The translations under genes were made by a program, and so were the position numbers. From Minisyncoccota bacterium (GTDB lineage: Bacteria; Patescibacteriota; Minisyncoccia; UBA6257; 2-01-FULL-56-20), in contig DATAXS010000004.1 in NCBI GenBank assembly GCA_036266715.1, positions 889-64,888 of the forward strand: a stretch of DNA of 64,000 bases, written 5' to 3'. Within the stretch, counting starts at the first letter, position 1; every line of letters starts with the position of its first letter. This document shows, piece by piece, positions 13,067 to 14,726 of this stretch. Under the pieces are notes generated by a model. It did no database searches and had not been told where the DNA came from. It was given only the letters and a program-made list of their open reading frames with translations.

Positions 13067-14400
13067 GCCCCACTAAAAAATTCTTTACGAATATTTTGCG
13101 TTCTGCCCTGCGCGGGCTTGCGCGGCTCACCATTTGGCGTTACCGGCCGGGCGTCGTGGGCGTCACGGGGAGCGTGGGGAAAACATCCACCAAGCTTGCC
13201 ATTGCAATGGTGCTCGGCACGGTGCGGCGCGTGCGGGTTTCGTCCGGCAATTTGAACAACGATCTTGGATTGCCGCTCGTAGTGCTCGGCGACTGGAGCG
13301 CGCACGACCTCAAGCTCGTGAGCCGCGACACGCCGCGCGGTACGCGGATGGGGGCAAAGATCGGCTTTTGGACGAAGGTCGTTTTTGTCTCGCTGTGGCA
13401 CATTGCGGTGACCGACAAAAAATATCCGGAAATTCTTGTCGTTGAATATGGCGCCGACCGGCCGGGCGACATTAAATATTTATTGACGATCGTGCGGCCG
13501 AATGTGAGCGTGATCACGGCGATTGGCGACTACCCGGTGCACGTGGAATTTTATGCCGGGCCGGAAGAAGTGGCGCGCGAAAAGGGCCGCCTTATTGAAT
13601 GCCTGCCCGTGGGCGGCTTTGCGGTCTTAAATTACGACGACGAAACGGTGATGCACTTGGAGTCGCGGACGCGCGCGCGGGTTCTCACCTACGGTTTTGA
13701 AAAAGGTGCGGAGGTGCAGCTCGCGCGTTTTGAGAATCGCGTGGCGCATGGCGCGGAGGGGGACGTGCCTGCGGGCATCGCATTCAAAGTGGAGCACGCG
13801 GGGAGTTCGGTGCCGGTCGCAGTGGAGGGCGCGTTCGGCCGCGCGCAGGCGTATGCGGCCGGCGCCGCGACCGCCGTCGGATTGATTTTCGGTATGAATC
13901 TCGTTAAGATTGCGGAAGCGCTCGCGCGGTACAAGCCCGCGGATGCGCGCATGCAGCTTCTCCCGGGAATAAAGCAAACGTACGTCATTGATGATTCGTA
14001 TAACGCAAGCCCGCTTTCCATGGATGCGGCACTCACGACGTTGAGCGATCTTCCCGCCAAGCGGCGCATTGCGGTCCTGGGCGACATGCTGGAAATAGGG
14101 AAGTATACGCCGGAAGCGCACGAGCGCGTGGGACGCCTTGCGGCGCATGCGGCGGACATGCTCTTTACCGTCGGCCCCCGCGCGAAGTTCATTGCGGACG
14201 CGGCGCGCGCGGCAGGCATGAAGAAAACGAGCATTTTTTCCTACGACACCGCAGACGAGGCCTCGCGGCCTTTGAAGGACGCGATGAAAAAAGGAGATCT
14301 CGTGCTCGTGAAAGGTTCCCACGCAATGCAGTTGGACAGAGTAGTTGCGGAGATAAAAATGATAGCGCCCGTAATGCCGTCATCGTCTAGTCCGGTCTAG
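13063..14400 (+). CDS. murF: UDP-N-acetylmuramoyl-tripeptide--D-alanyl-D-alanine ligase MurF
   Basis: Mur ligase P-loop GVTGSVGKTSTK and central/C-terminal Mur ligase domains. The 3' end of the ORF overlaps the 5' part of tRNA-Glu. Confidence 0.85.
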   Translation: MSPTKKFFTNILRSALRGLARLTIWRYRPGVVGVTGSVGKTSTKLAIAMVLGTVRRVRVSSGNLNNDLGLPLVVLGDWSAHDLKLVSRDTPRGTRMGAKIGFWTKVVFVSLWHIAVTDKKYPEILVVEYGADRPGDIKYLLTIVRPNVSVITAIGDYPVHVEFYAGPEEVAREKGRLIECLPVGGFAVLNYDDETVMHLESRTRARVLTYGFEKGAEVQLARFENRVAHGAEGDVPAGIAFKVEHAGSSVPVAVEGAFGRAQAYAAGAATAVGLIFGMNLVKIAEALARYKPADARMQLLPGIKQTYVIDDSYNASPLSMDAALTTLSDLPAKRRIAVLGDMLEIGKYTPEAHERVGRLAAHAADMLFTVGPRAKFIADAARAAGMKKTSIFSYDTADEASRPLKDAMKKGDLVLVKGSHAMQLDRVVAEIKMIAPVMPSSSSPV

Positions 14401-14453
14401 GACGTCGCCCTCTCACGGCGAAAACTCGGGTTCGAATCCCGATGGCGGTACCA
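14376..14453 (+). tRNA. tRNA-Glu (anticodon CTC) with encoded CCA
   Basis: Closely resembles E. coli tRNA-Glu. Acceptor GCCGTCA/TGGCGGT, D-arm GTCTAG..., anticodon loop CTCTCAC, T-arm TCGGG-TTCGAAT-CCCGA, then ACCA. Confidence 0.85.
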
Positions 14454-14726
14454 CACAAAATACTCCCGAAAGGGACGGCGTCGCGCCGTACTCGGCGCGC
14501 GCCTCTCTCTCGGCGCTGCCAGCATACCCGTTATTCAAAATTTCCCTGGGCGCCTCCGAGACGCCCTTTCGGGAGTATTTTGTGTGGTACCTTCTTTGTT
14601 GGGGGATTCGAACAAGGAAGGGGGTCGGGGAAACGCAGTTTCCCCGTGTAGGAGAGAGGTTGAGAACCGAGGGTTCTCAAAGCGCAGGCCGCGTCGCGCG
14701 GCTGAGCAGTTCGAATCCCGATGGCG
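14447..14726 (+). mobile_element. Element B, about 275 bp, inserted at the tRNA-Glu 3' end. It consists of a 28-bp perfect hairpin (14447-14474 / 14564-14591) whose first arm begins with the tRNA's GGTACCA and whose loop is 89 nt, a conserved core (14597-14650), a small hairpin (14660-14680), a GC hairpin (14688-14704) and a direct repeat of the tRNA 3' end, GTTCGAATCCCGATGGCG (14709-14726)
   Basis: Same architecture and size as element A at 4411-4687. The core identity includes GGGGAAACGCAGTTTCCCCGTG. Confidence 0.7.

What the first reader, a model, noticed from the sequence alone, without database searches (positions are those of the whole stretch)
14376..14726. Second copy of the same element class at tRNA-Glu(CTC); loops and core are conserved, stems differ
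The same architecture and size are seen as at 4411-4687. The 28-bp perfect hairpin (14447-14474 / 14564-14591) starts with GGTACCA, which is the tRNA's last acceptor nucleotide, discriminator and CCA. After it come a core (14597-14650) that includes GGGGAAACGCAGTTTCCCCGTG, a small hairpin (ttgagaacc-gag-ggttctcaa), a GC hairpin (ggccgcgtcgcgcggc), and an 18-nt direct repeat GTTCGAATCCCGATGGCG of the tRNA-Glu 3' part (14709-14726) followed by a T-run. The two 28-bp stems share no sequence. The loops are homologous: both contain CTCTCTCTCGGC and end in GCCTCCGAGACG. The antisense T-loop copy in the core is matched to the host tRNA (ttcgaatcccc here, ttcaattcctc in copy A). So each copy carries a target-matched 3' repeat plus an antisense T-loop segment. 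Perfect but non-homologous long stems combined with a conserved loop and core argue for a templated or selected structure rather than random palindromes. The track ORF 14442-14651 (GGFEQGRGSGKRSFPV) is an artefact.
Basis: seen in the sequence. Interest (0 to 1): 0.8.

Follow-up and report, generated by a model that had tools for sequence, protein, structure and literature searches.

The report
Miniature hairpin element behind tRNA genes
A roughly 280-base, gene-less, heavily folded DNA element sits in the tail of a tRNA gene in a tiny candidate-phyla-radiation (CPR) bacterium; it is a real, recurrent and probably mobile element, and its 35-base core also occurs in many bacterial phyla, in DPANN archaea and in giant-virus contigs, and was not found in Rfam 15 or by the literature searches run here.

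Summary
Downstream of tRNA-Glu(CTC) there is a perfect 28-bp hairpin, a conserved core, two small hairpins and an exact 18-nt repeat of the tRNA 3' part. A sister copy lies at tRNA-Arg. The host is a Paceibacterota (CPR) bacterium.

Six further elements of the same build turned up behind tRNA-Glu, -Thr and -Met in independent assemblies. Syntenic murF–tRNA-Glu loci are full (3), decayed (3) or empty (4).

The anatomy has four parts:
- a terminator-like long stem plus T-rich tract (domain 1);
- an antisense T-arm segment, T(-);
- a multi-hairpin domain 2 closed by T(-) pairing with the repeat (15 of 40 pairs compensatory);
- a repeat running from the T-loop to the tRNA end, the classic att signature.

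T(-) tracks five different T-loop variants. All 202 bp of the long stems are Watson-Crick.

No integrase, transposase or reverse transcriptase gene is in the window, and there is no Rfam or literature match.

The core (AAGGAAGGGGGTC plus the GGGGAAAC-NNN-GTTTCCCC hairpin) recurs in unrelated repeat elements of Bacillota, Omnitrophota and DPANN archaea, and in giant-virus contigs.

Best reading: a non-autonomous element that integrates into tRNA 3' ends and carries a pan-domain structured module of unknown function. The mechanism is inferred, not shown.

The parts
14376..14453 (+). tRNA-Glu(CTC), the host gene. Its last 24 nt (T-loop to CCA) lie at the left junction of the element.
   Evidence: ARAGORN; Rfam tRNA 58.6 bits. 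It is the only tRNA examined in the window whose gene encodes CCA.
14430..14447 (+). Left copy of the 18-nt direct repeat, T(+): tRNA positions 53-70 (attL-like).
   Evidence: the repeat finder D1, 100% identical to 14709-14726.
14447..14591 (+). Domain 1: a perfect 28-bp stem (14447-14474 / 14564-14591) enclosing an 89-nt branched loop (14475-14563) that is homologous to the loop of copy A.
   Evidence: the repeat finder I1, 100% complementary. The fold shows two apical hairpins. The loop alignment shows the shared blocks. Eight elements together have 202 bp of such stems, all Watson-Crick.
14592..14602 (+). T/G-rich spacer TTCTTTGTTGG directly after the stem. Together with domain 1 it looks like an intrinsic terminator for the tRNA transcript.
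   Evidence: Read from the sequence. Equivalent spacers in all eight elements: TTTTTTGG, GTGCTTGTTGT, TTTGTCTTAAT and others. The terminator role is inferred.
14603..14613 (+). T(-): the antisense copy of the tRNA T-loop plus 3' T-stem (GGGATTCGAAC). It forms the 5' strand of helix P1.
   Evidence: the repeat finder I2/I3, 11/11 complementary to both repeat copies. P1 is predicted in the minimum-free-energy fold and in the consensus fold, with compensatory changes.
14614..14626 (+). Conserved purine-rich 13-mer AAGGAAGGGGGTC (joining strand J1/2).
   Evidence: Identical in copy A, in L098 and in giant-virus contigs L110, L113 and L115. The 10-mer, with at most 2 mismatches, lies within 50 nt 5' of 70 of the 109 hairpin instances collected.
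14627..14645 (+). P2: hairpin GGGGAAAC-GCA-GTTTCCCC.
   Evidence: There are 95 stretches with this exact 19-mer in one-genome-per-species contigs. Relatives L101, L105 and L107 have a different G-rich P2 at the same place.
14660..14680 (+). P3: hairpin TTGAGAACC-GAG-GGTTCTCAA, with the conserved top ACCGAGGGT.
   Evidence: Five of its nine pairs show compensatory double changes among five elements.
14687..14708 (+). P4: GC hairpin GGCCGCG-TCG-CGCGGC, followed by the conserved linker TGAGCA.
   Evidence: The block GCGCAGGCCGCGTYGCGCGGCYGAGCAGT is shared with copy A.
14709..14726 (+). Right copy of the direct repeat, T(+)' (attR-like). Its first 11 nt form the 3' strand of P1. In this copy it lacks the last six tRNA nucleotides (GTACCA).
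   Evidence: In L101, L107, L098 and copy A the right copy runs to within 0-2 nt of the tRNA discriminator.
14727..14735 (+). T-run TGTTTTTAT after the repeat. The promoter-like site of the next gene follows at 14759-14786.
4413..4702 (-). Sister copy A at tRNA-Arg(CCT) (4685-4757, minus strand). It has 19-nt repeats (4684-4702 / 4413-4431), a 29-bp perfect stem (4659-4687 / 4570-4598), T(-) at 4549-4560, the 13-mer at 4536-4548 and the 19-mer at 4517-4535, plus one extra hairpin.

Best explanation
The region 14447-14726 is a non-autonomous, ORF-less genetic element of about 280 bp. It is integrated into the 3' end of tRNA-Glu(CTC) of a Paceibacterota (CPR) bacterium. It belongs to a family that occupies the same kind of site behind several tRNAs.

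Shown:
- The element is bounded by a direct repeat that starts at tRNA position 53 (first base of the T-loop region) and runs towards the tRNA 3' end.
- Related genomes carry full, decayed or no elements at the same tRNA.
- Different element types occupy the same site in different genomes.
- The interior has two folded domains.

Domain 1 supplies the last nucleotides of the tRNA. It consists of a long, perfectly paired stem followed by a T-rich tract, that is, a terminator-like end for the tRNA gene.

Domain 2 is a four- to five-way junction. Its closing helix P1 is formed by an element-borne antisense segment, T(-), and the right-hand repeat copy. Its conserved single strand AAGGAAGGGGGTC and apical hairpin P2 form a module shared with unrelated repeat elements in many phyla.

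Inferred:
- The repeat is an att-type duplication made by site-specific recombination in the T-loop. The element carries its own copy of the tRNA 3' part, so the gene stays intact. The original 3' end is displaced to the right border.
- The recombinase acts in trans and is unknown.
- In an excised single-stranded circle there would be one T(+), and it would pair with T(-). The attachment site would then sit in a folded duplex between the two lobes. The integrated order T(+) - hairpin - T(-) - cargo - T(+) is the order that a folded single-stranded attachment site of the CTX-phage kind produces.
- The perfect but fast-diverging stems reflect a DNA-level constraint (hairpin folding with quasipalindrome correction) rather than re-templating at each insertion.

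What the conserved module does is not known.
For: Anatomy.

Sister copy with the same build at tRNA-Arg.

Further members:
- The two metagenome hits to a core pattern both lie directly 3' of a tRNA: L098 at tRNA-Thr with a 21-nt repeat, and L097 at tRNA-Met.
- Among ten syntenic murF-tRNA-Glu loci, the window, L101 and L107 are full. L105 and L103/L104 are decayed. L099, L100, L106 and L108 are empty.

The right repeat looks like a displaced tRNA end:
- In L107 the right repeat copy is followed after 3 nt by the -35 box TTGACA. The intact tRNA end in the empty locus L099 is followed by the same box after 4 nt.
- The repeats end 0-2 nt after the discriminator in copy A, L098, L101 and L021.

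The antisense segment tracks the tRNA T-arm. Matches are 11/11 (B), 12/12 (A), 12/12 (L098), 16/17 (L097), 10/11 (L107), 11/12 (L105) and 9/11 (L101), across the T-loop variants TTCGAAT, TTCAATT, TTCAACT, TTCAAAT and TTCGATT.

Consensus fold of five complete domain 2 sequences: 40 pairs, 15 of them with compensatory double changes, including pairs in P1 and P3.

DNA-level signature: 202 bp of long stems in eight elements, with no mismatch and no G-T pair.

B groups with A and L098 by core type. L101 and L107, at the same tRNA-Glu site, carry another P2 type, which points to repeated occupation of the site.

Tandem accretion of two copies is seen at an archaeal tRNA in L021.

No coding capacity was found. 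There is no known RNA family match.
Against: - No integrase, transposase or reverse transcriptase gene is present in the 64-kb window or next to any related copy. The supposed trans-acting enzyme is therefore hypothetical.
- No excised form or empty site in the same species was seen.
- In copy B the right repeat stops six nucleotides short of the tRNA end (GATGGCG|TG...). The sequence as it stands cannot be an intact displaced tRNA end, and secondary decay has to be assumed.
- To the left of the repeat the element has GAGCA rather than a second T-stem-like arm. A classical double-stranded core site (two inverted binding arms around an overlap) is therefore not evident.
- L097, L105 and L103 lack the right repeat.
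- The strong conservation of domain 2 and of the loops, together with saturated stems, would also fit a host-retained functional RNA.
- MurF identities of only 71-79% between the compared genomes mean that gain and loss cannot be polarised.
Confidence: 0.45

Rival explanations
1. Domain 2, with or without domain 1, is a functional structured RNA made from the tRNA transcription unit, that is, a 3'-trailer RNA. Its P1 helix borrows a copy of the tRNA T-arm. It would act in RNA processing, termination control or tRNA-related regulation. The host retains it; it does not move.
For: - Compensatory changes occur in P1, P2 and P3.
- Unpaired strands are conserved: AAGGAAGGGGGTC, GTGTAGGAG, GAGCA.
- The only promoter-like sites nearby are those of the tRNA genes, and the elements lie on the tRNA strand.
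- Across all families the module points the same way as the upstream ORF in 22 of 27 cases.
- The two wobble pairs seen (L101 P1 and P3; L097) are G-T on the tRNA-sense strand only.
- The antisense segment still matches the tRNA's own T-arm in L105 and L097, which lack the right repeat.
Against: - A long hairpin plus T-tract stands between the tRNA and domain 2. Read-through would be needed.
- The repeat extends 7-11 nt beyond P1 into the acceptor strand, and it ends at the tRNA end. An RNA helix does not require this.
- Stems are almost free of G-U pairs (none in 202 bp of long stems). That is unusual for helices selected only at the RNA level.
- Presence, decay and absence at one locus, with different types at one site.
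- The same module is embedded in terminal-inverted-repeat elements and in ORFs elsewhere.
- There is no Rfam family.
Confidence: 0.2
2. The insertions are made by strand-joining or copying chemistry rather than by a classical integrase. One version uses reverse transcription or template switching. In that version the segment made of the right arm end plus T(-) is in effect a cDNA of the tRNA 3' end, and AAGGAAGGGGG acts like a polypurine tract. The other version uses a poxvirus-type topoisomerase IB. It would cleave after (C/T)CCTT on the complementary strand (CCCCTTCCTT) and join the module to foreign 5'-OH ends.
For: - The conserved block begins exactly at AAGG in every lineage, with unrelated sequence 5' of it.
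- In the CPR elements that boundary abuts the target-derived T(-).
- T(-) and the right repeat are mirror copies of the same side of the target, and both start at position 53.
- The host range of the module (bacteria plus giant viruses) resembles that of poxvirus-type topoisomerase IB. That range, and the motif (C/T)CCTT, are recalled from the literature and were not tested here.
- Loop flip-flop states (GCA/TGC, GTA/TAC) point to DNA-level hairpin events.
Against: - The related elements L101, L105 and L107 have G-rich joining strands without CCCTT or TCCTT.
- The acceptor part of the tRNA is not mirrored; a conserved T/G-rich spacer stands in its place.
- No reverse transcriptase or topoisomerase gene was seen near any copy.
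- The repeats end at the tRNA end, as att sites do, rather than at arbitrary staggered cuts.
Confidence: 0.12
3. The elements are deletion scars. Larger integrative elements (proviruses or plasmids) once integrated at these tRNAs, and internal deletions left only attL, the two element ends and attR.
For: - The repeats are att-like.
- Decayed versions exist, L103/L104 and L105.
- L101 and L021 show tandem accretion, which is typical of tRNA integration hot spots.
Against: - The same compact architecture and size recur at four different tRNAs in different genomes, with compensatory evolution in every helix. Independent deletions would not converge on this.
- No full-length relative was found. 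There are no matches in plasmids or phages. No viral contig matched the domain 2 pattern CCGTGTAGGAG...GAACCGAGGGTTC that marks the tRNA-linked type.
Confidence: 0.1
4. Nothing special: an ordinary tRNA trailer or terminator plus chance repeats, or an assembly artefact.
For: - Long near-perfect hairpins are common in the intergenic DNA of this genome.
- The only other assembly of this organism found (Logan contig L001) stops inside the tRNA, so the element itself is seen in one assembly only.
Against: - The exact 18- to 21-nt repeats and the 39-nt block shared by A and B are far beyond chance.
- The architecture is reproduced in ENA, JGI, NCBI and Logan assemblies of other organisms.
- Five T-loop variants are tracked by the antisense segment.
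Confidence: 0.03

Closest known systems
Integrative elements that target tRNA 3' ends with tyrosine integrases (the T-loop sublocation class of Williams 2002), and their integrase-less derivatives (cis-mobilizable elements flanked by attL/attR)
   Same: [quoted passage not shown] The element supplies a replacement 3' end. The displaced original end sits at the far border next to the native downstream promoter. There is tandem accretion and presence/absence at one site.
   Different: The element is only about 280 bp (about 100 bp in the archaeal case). It has no gene and no integrase anywhere nearby. Its interior consists entirely of hairpins. It carries an antisense copy of the attachment sequence. 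No second core-type arm is visible to the left of the repeat.
Attachment sites folded from single-stranded DNA: CTX phage attP(+) used by XerCD, and integron attC sites used by IntI
   Same: The integrated order is site - loop - inverted site - cargo - site. The duplex attachment site forms only by intrastrand pairing. There is an unpaired stretch inside the hairpin and a variable terminal structure. Structure is conserved while stem sequence is free.
   Different: The target is a tRNA gene, not dif or attI. There are no XerC/XerD boxes and no R/L boxes with extrahelical bases. There is no integron platform or cassette array. The repeat is 18-22 nt rather than 7. Single-stranded intermediates are pure inference here.
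Small ORF-less selfish repeats: MITEs, Rickettsia palindromic elements (RPE), REP/BIME, and the GC clusters of yeast mitochondrial DNA
   Same: They are short, multi-copy, hairpin-forming and non-coding, with no transposase in cis. Relatives of the core module sit inside ORFs in frame (ribonucleotide reductase in L019, RF2 in L040), as RPEs do. In Bacillota the module rides on elements with terminal inverted repeats.
   Different: The CPR tRNA elements have no terminal inverted repeats of their own and no short fixed target duplication. Their site specificity is for tRNA 3' ends. There is no sequence similarity to those families; none of them is represented in the libraries searched.
RNA-guided mobile-element systems with target-matched segments (IS110 bridge RNA, the omega RNA of IS200/IS605/IS607 TnpB)
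   Same: A structured scaffold is followed by an 18-22-nt stretch identical to the target, plus a second segment complementary to the target. The distribution spans bacteria, archaea and giant viruses, as it does for TnpB/Fanzor elements.
   Different: No DEDD recombinase, TnpA or TnpB gene is present. The target-identical stretch is a flanking duplication that ends at the tRNA end. It is paired with the antisense segment rather than free. There is no Rfam match to the HEARO or other omega-RNA models held in Rfam 15.
Intrinsic (Rho-independent) terminators
   Same: Domain 1 is a stable stem directly followed by a T-rich tract, and it sits at the end of a tRNA gene. Long perfect hairpins are the usual intergenic style of this genome.
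   Different: The stems are 24-30 bp with loops of up to 102 nt. The stem reaches into the tRNA's own 3' end. Domain 1 is physically linked to domain 2 and to the repeat.

Membership tests
tRNA-targeting site-specific integrative element (att-flanked, non-autonomous) | Direct repeats that correspond to the 3' part of a tRNA gene, with an intact tRNA at one border. | tested here: met
   18-nt repeat in B, 19 in A, 21 in L098, 22 in L101 and about 21/22 in L107. All start at tRNA position 53-57.
tRNA-targeting site-specific integrative element (att-flanked, non-autonomous) | Empty and occupied versions of the same site exist in related genomes. | tested here: met
   At the murF-tRNA-Glu locus, four loci are empty, three full and three decayed. 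The genomes are distant (MurF 71-79% identical), so gain and loss cannot be told apart.
tRNA-targeting site-specific integrative element (att-flanked, non-autonomous) | A cognate integrase, in cis or elsewhere in the genome, that recombines the att sites. | tested here: not met
   There is no recombinase, transposase or reverse transcriptase domain in about 50 ORFs of the window. No recurrent enzyme gene lies near 95 related loci. The rest of the genome could not be searched.
tRNA-targeting site-specific integrative element (att-flanked, non-autonomous) | Excision to a circle and re-integration. | not testable with these tools
   This needs read-level or experimental data.
Folded single-stranded attachment sites (integron attC; CTX-type IMEX) | Intrastrand pairing recreates the recombination site, with structure conserved over sequence. 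| tested here: inconclusive
   T(-) pairs with T(+) in all eight elements and co-varies with it. Whether that duplex is a recombination site is unknown.
Folded single-stranded attachment sites (integron attC; CTX-type IMEX) | attC R/L boxes (RYYYAAC ... GTTRRRY) next to an intI/attI platform, or XerC/XerD-binding dif-like arms. | tested here: not met
   ATTCGAAC / GTTCGAA does not fit RYYYAAC / GTTRRRY (reading). There is no array and no integrase. The target is a tRNA, not dif.
MITE | Terminal inverted repeats and a short target-site duplication of fixed length. | tested here: not met
   The element ends (GTACCACAC... / ...GGCTGAGCA) are not inverted repeats. The repeat is 18-22 nt and is defined by the tRNA. 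Bacillota and RGIG2385 elements that carry the same core do have terminal inverted repeats.
Known structured RNA families (Rfam 15), including self-cleaving ribozymes, omega/HEARO RNAs, group I/II introns and tRNA-like elements | A score at or above the family's gathering threshold. | tested here: not met
   Only tRNA passes in the window and in ten related loci. A permissive search of 14300-14800 gives nothing better than E = 0.1 outside the tRNA.
Intrinsic terminator (domain 1 only) | A G+C-containing stem directly followed by a T-rich tract on the transcribed strand. | tested here: inconclusive
   Stem plus T-rich spacer is present in all eight elements. The consensus scanner does not call it, because the loops exceed its 8-nt limit. 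No transcript data are available.
Retroelements primed on tRNA (primer-binding site plus polypurine tract) | About 18 nt complementary to the 3'-terminal nucleotides of a tRNA, and a reverse transcriptase. | tested here: not met
   Complementarity covers positions 53-63/64 and, separately, 70-76. Positions 64-69 are not covered, except in L097. No reverse transcriptase was found.

The most novel reading that the evidence does not exclude
The 13-mer AAGGAAGGGGGTC plus the hairpin GGGGAAAC-NNN-GTTTCCCC is a self-contained, pan-domain mobile module. It would be handled by an enzyme shared by bacteria, DPANN archaea and giant viruses. One candidate is a poxvirus-type topoisomerase IB acting on the two overlapping (C/T)CCTT motifs of its complementary strand. 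Another is an unrecognised recombinase or nuclease.

In CPR bacteria the module would have been built into about 280-nt elements. These would excise as folded single-stranded circles and integrate into tRNA 3' ends through a hairpin attachment site. That would be a gene-less integrative element of viroid size.
Probability: 0.15. Interest if true: 0.85.

Novelty: new variant of a known kind. Interest (0 to 1): 0.66.

Why it matters
If the best reading holds, these would be unusually small site-specific integrative elements: no gene, about 280 bp, and built only of hairpins and a copy of the target. They occur in CPR bacteria and DPANN archaea, lineages with very small genomes.

They would show how a selfish element can occupy an essential tRNA gene while repairing it and supplying it with a terminator.

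Independently of the mechanism, the 35-nt core is a sequence-conserved module shared by bacteria of several phyla, by archaea and by giant-virus contigs. It is absent from Rfam 15, and the sequence and keyword literature searches run here found no description of it. Such a distribution needs either a very promiscuous carrier or a universal partner molecule, and either would be worth knowing.

In practice, these elements generate spurious ORF calls.

Tried and rejected
- Known RNA families. Gathering-threshold searches of the window and ten related loci, and a permissive search of the region, gave only tRNA.
- Exact 35-mer core in JGI metagenomes: no hit.
- Exact 19-mer in viral contigs: no hit. 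A domain 2 pattern in viral contigs: no hit.
- Plasmid and phage collections queried with the Bacillota consensus, and the phage collection also with the giant-virus consensus: nothing significant.
- Spurious-ORF trick. I searched the protein database with the reading frame across copy A's core to pull out more copies.
- Enzyme partner. Pfam on about 50 window ORFs found only housekeeping genes. Clustering ORFs within 2.5 kb of 95 related loci found no recurrent transposase, integrase or reverse transcriptase. Neighbours of the Nitrospirota and giant-virus copies were likewise uninformative.
- A distant right repeat in L097 that would reveal a long island: none in the 13.5-kb contig.
- Population heterogeneity from the Logan contig end. 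L001 ends inside the tRNA at 14422, before the repeat. Sharing of the tRNA sequence with other community members would explain this (my inference, not checked), so it is not informative.
- Literature. Searches for the exact motifs and for keyword sets (CPR, tRNA, hairpin, miniature, attP, folded) found no description.
- Rejected by reasoning: a tRNA-like domain (no 5' T-stem partner precedes the right repeat), group II intron domain V, an HDV-like nested pseudoknot, a CRISPR repeat, a retron (no a1/a2 arrangement or RT), and a Shine-Dalgarno or small-ORF reading of AAGGAAGGGGG (no start codon follows).
- A covariance model of domain 2 found no further copies in the window or in the fetched CPR loci.

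
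Full report
**1. What is there**

The window comes from a Candidatus Paceibacterota (Patescibacteria/CPR) genome. Its MurF protein is identical to an NCBI entry of that name, and its closest relatives are Minisyncoccia and Paceibacterota.

tRNA-Glu(CTC) lies at 14376-14453. From the tRNA's T-loop onward the sequence reads as follows:

| Segment | Coordinates | Sequence or size |
|---|---|---|
| T(+), left repeat copy | 14430-14447 | GTTCGAATCCCGATGGCG |
| Rest of the tRNA end | to 14453 | GTACCA |
| Perfect stem | 14447-14474 / 14564-14591 | 28 bp |
| Loop | 14475-14563 | 89 nt |
| T/G-rich spacer | 14592-14602 | TTCTTTGTTGG |
| T(-), antisense of the T-loop and 3' T-stem | 14603-14613 | GGGATTCGAAC |
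| 13-mer | 14614-14626 | AAGGAAGGGGGTC |
| P2 hairpin | 14627-14645 | GGGGAAAC-GCA-GTTTCCCC |
| P3 hairpin | 14660-14680 | |
| P4 hairpin | 14687-14702 | |
| Linker | 14703-14708 | TGAGCA |
| T(+)', right repeat copy | 14709-14726 | exact second copy of the 18-mer |
| T-run | 14727-14735 | TGTTTTTAT |

Copy A at tRNA-Arg(CCT), on the minus strand, has the same build: a 19-nt repeat, a 29-bp perfect stem, a 12-nt antisense segment and one extra hairpin. A and B share a 39-nt identical block. Its 20-mer core occurs nowhere else in the window, against 0 expected in shuffles. Both elements fold far better than shuffled sequence (z = -7.9 and -11.7). The opposite strand folds equally well (z = -10.9), so energy does not name a strand.

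**2. It is a family**

A pattern made of the core with its GAAC prefix hit two metagenome contigs, and both hits lie directly 3' of a tRNA.
- L098 (tRNA-Thr) has a perfect 19-bp palindrome, a spacer, T(-) GAGGAGTTGAAC, the identical 13-mer and 19-mer, three hairpins and a 21-nt repeat.
- L097 (tRNA-Met) has a 21-bp palindrome that includes AACCA, and a 17-nt antisense segment with one mismatch.

Using MurF relatives as handles, I fetched nine further loci syntenic with murF-tRNA-Glu, ten with the window.
- L101 and L107 carry complete elements.
- L105 carries domain 1, T(-) and a truncated domain 2.
- L103 and L104 carry domain 1 and a remnant of T(-).
- L099, L100, L106 and L108 have no element.

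In the empty locus L099 the tRNA end is followed after 4 nt by a TTGACA...TATAAT promoter. In L107 the right repeat copy is followed after 3 nt by the same kind of promoter. This is what one expects if the right copy is the original tRNA end pushed aside by an insertion.

The repeats of A, L098, L101 and of an archaeal case (L021) end 0-2 nt after the discriminator. B's right copy is six nucleotides short.

**3. Anatomy and constraints**

*Domain 1.* In eight elements the long stem measures 19-30 bp. It begins between 7 nt before and 5 nt after the tRNA's last nucleotide. It contains no mismatch and no G-T pair in 202 bp.
- Loops range from 0 to 102 nt and fall into types. A and B share one type, and L101 and L105 share another.
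- Between L101 and L105 the loop region is well conserved, while the outer stem is essentially unrelated on both arms (80% mean identity over the whole domain 1 alignment).
- The stem is always followed by a T/G-rich spacer of 8-19 nt: TTTTTT in A, GCTTGTTGT in L107, TTTGTCTTAAT in L105.

Stem plus T-tract is the form of an intrinsic terminator. This genome has other long near-perfect intergenic hairpins. I therefore read domain 1 as the element's replacement tRNA end plus terminator. That reading is an inference.

*T(-).* It matches the resident tRNA's T-arm as follows:

| Element | Match of T(-) to the T-arm |
|---|---|
| B | 11/11 |
| A | 12/12 |
| L098 | 12/12 |
| L097 | 16/17 |
| L107 | 10/11 |
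| L105 | 11/12 |
| L101 | 9/11 |

It follows five T-loop variants: TTCGAAT, TTCAATT, TTCAACT, TTCAAAT and TTCGATT.

*Domain 2.* The consensus fold of five complete copies has P1 (T(-) with T(+)'), P2, P3 and P4. It contains 40 pairs, and 15 of them show compensatory double changes (four sequences gave 11 of 39).

The antisense segment is therefore one strand of a conserved helix. It is not evidence for a guide that is rewritten at each insertion.

The near absence of wobble pairs argues for a constraint at the DNA level. Quasipalindrome correction by template switching is an established mutational process. It keeps arms perfect while letting them drift. I did not test it.

The few wobbles that exist (L101 P1 and P3, L097) are G-T on the tRNA-sense strand.

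**4. Mobility**

B's core type (13-mer plus 19-mer P2) is shared with A and with L098 at other tRNAs. L101 and L107, at the same tRNA-Glu site as B, carry a different G-rich P2 (GGAGGGGACG...). So the same site holds different element types in related genomes, and one type sits at different tRNAs.

L101 has a second CCA-plus-hairpin unit behind its right repeat. The Micrarchaeota locus L021 has two tandem copies behind an intron-containing tRNA. These are the habits of tRNA integration sites.

Against this, no recombinase, transposase or reverse transcriptase gene is present in the window or near related copies. No excised form could be looked for.

**5. Mechanism**

The most economical account is site-specific recombination in the T-loop by an enzyme supplied in trans. 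The element carries the T-loop-to-3'-end segment, as integrative elements at tRNA genes do (established knowledge: Williams 2002).

The unusual point is T(-). In a circle there is one T(+), and it would pair with T(-) between the two lobes. A single strand exchange between that folded duplex and the tRNA gene would give exactly the observed order T(+) - hairpin - T(-) - cargo - T(+). This is the logic of CTX-phage integration and of integron attC sites.

This step is inferred from geometry only. The sequence to the left of the repeat (GAGCA) does not look like a second recombinase arm, and the defining boxes of attC and dif sites are absent.

Rival readings are set out separately: a retained functional RNA, copying or topoisomerase chemistry, deletion scars, and artefact.

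**6. The core is a pan-domain module**

The exact 19-mer occurs in 95 stretches of a one-genome-per-species collection. Some of these are probably chance terminators, for example the hairpins behind tRNA-Pro in two Gaiellaceae. However, 70 of the 109 hairpin instances collected carry AAGGAAGGGG (at most 2 mismatches) within 50 nt on the 5' side. Every position of that 10-mer is conserved, and nothing upstream of it is.

Carriers of the module:
- multi-copy elements with terminal inverted repeats in Bacillota MAGs, some lying between duplicated terminator hairpins;
- another element with terminal inverted repeats in a goat-gut Clostridia MAG;
- copies about 105 nt upstream of tRNA genes in Omnitrophota;
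- Micrarchaeota and Iainarchaeota;
- an alphaproteobacterial MAG;
- in-frame insertions in a ribonucleotide reductase gene (L019) and an RF2 gene (L040) of CPR-like genomes.

With the loop left free, eight viral contigs match. At least four of them are giant-virus-like: they are AT-rich, and the octamer AAAATTGA follows the hairpin. I recognise that octamer from memory as the Mimiviridae early promoter. Three of these contigs carry the very 13-mer of the window.

Further properties:
- Loops occur in mirror states (GCA/TGC, GTA/TAC), even within one contig.
- The module points the same way as the upstream ORF in 22 of 27 cases.
- A covariance model of domain 2 matches Bacillota copies weakly over its full length (E about 1e-6).
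- No Rfam family, plasmid, phage or paper matches.

I have no tested explanation for this distribution. One lead from memory: the complementary strand CCCCTTCCTT contains two overlapping (C/T)CCTT motifs. That is the cleavage site of poxvirus-type topoisomerase IB, an enzyme family shared by poxviruses, mimiviruses and many bacteria. The conserved block ends exactly at that motif. The relatives L101, L105 and L107 lack the motif, which counts against the lead.

**7. Verdict**

It is a recurrent, structured, ORF-less element at tRNA 3' ends, with att-like repeats, a helix that co-varies with the host tRNA, and a core shared across domains of life.

It is closest to non-autonomous integrative elements. 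It differs from them in size, in its all-hairpin build and in its antisense attachment copy. I therefore file it as a new variant of a known kind. There is a minority chance that the module reveals an unrecognised mobilisation chemistry.

Noticed in passing
window 14921-14994 and 15957-16030, with ORF 15004-15762 between them; L105 3299-3372: Two paralogous 74-nt tRNA genes are called tRNA-Ser(CGA) and tRNA-Ser(TGA), yet they lack the long variable arm of serine tRNAs. They share about 60 nt of upstream sequence and the same trailer (GGCACGGCCGTGC). They flank an ORF of the endonuclease/exonuclease/phosphatase family. A relative (L105) has a single copy in front of the TIM gene. The ORF at the same place in L101 is unrelated. 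The ORF therefore looks like an insertion between duplicated tRNA copies.
   Followed up: partly
L109-L116 (IMG/VR contigs), e.g. L110 10102-10137, L115, L116: AAGGAAGGGGGTC-GTA-GGGG(G)AAAC-NNN-GTTTCCCC-TAC occurs in AT-rich giant-virus-like contigs, directly upstream of AAAATTGA promoter-like octamers. In L109, L110 and L115 it is preceded by arrays of 15-22-nt tandem repeats.
   Followed up: partly
L019 2800-3040 (Patescibacteria JALLOP010000013); L040 1880-2030: The core module lies inside a ribonucleotide reductase ORF, which reads through it in frame (about 53 extra residues). Two tandem 66-nt copies lie in frame near the 5' end of an RF2 (prfB) ORF. This recalls the Rickettsia palindromic elements.
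   Followed up: partly
L021 (Micrarchaeota PEXZ01000017), minus strand around 560-760: An archaeal tRNA that ARAGORN does not call appears to contain introns. It is followed by an element of about 100 nt between two copies of ATCCCGCCCCCCGCGTC. A second, diverged copy of the module follows.
   Followed up: no
L112 (two copies near 9062 and about 200 nt away); Bacillota loci L032, L037, L041, L094: The 3-nt loop of the conserved hairpin occurs in two mirror states (GTA vs TAC, GCA vs TGC) with identical stems and flanks. This is a flip-flop pattern that points to DNA-level hairpin events.
   Followed up: partly
window 48342-48452, 3562-3665, 53520-53595, 9408-9486, 18531-18626: Other long (25-49 nt arms), 83-97% complementary intergenic hairpins with short loops. 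One ends 2 nt before tRNA-Val. Long hairpins seem to be the normal intergenic style of this genome.
   Followed up: no
window 14614-14623 and all related loci: The complement of the conserved 10-mer, CCCCTTCCTT, holds two overlapping (C/T)CCTT pentamers. I recall this as the cleavage motif of poxvirus-type topoisomerase IB. The conserved block ends exactly there. The link is untested.
   Followed up: no
L090 4030-4480, L093, L045 (Bacillota MAGs): Elements of about 330 nt with ends GTGTCAAWAAA carry the module. In some copies they sit between duplicated intrinsic-terminator hairpins (27-nt exact repeat in L090). This suggests insertion between the hairpin and the T-tract of terminators.
   Followed up: partly
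L001 (Logan SRR11836411 contig), equal to window 12233-14422: An independent assembly of the same organism (2190/2190 identical bases) stops inside tRNA-Glu, 8 nt before the repeat. I assume, without having checked, that the tRNA sequence is shared with other community members. The contig neither confirms nor contradicts the element.
   Followed up: yes
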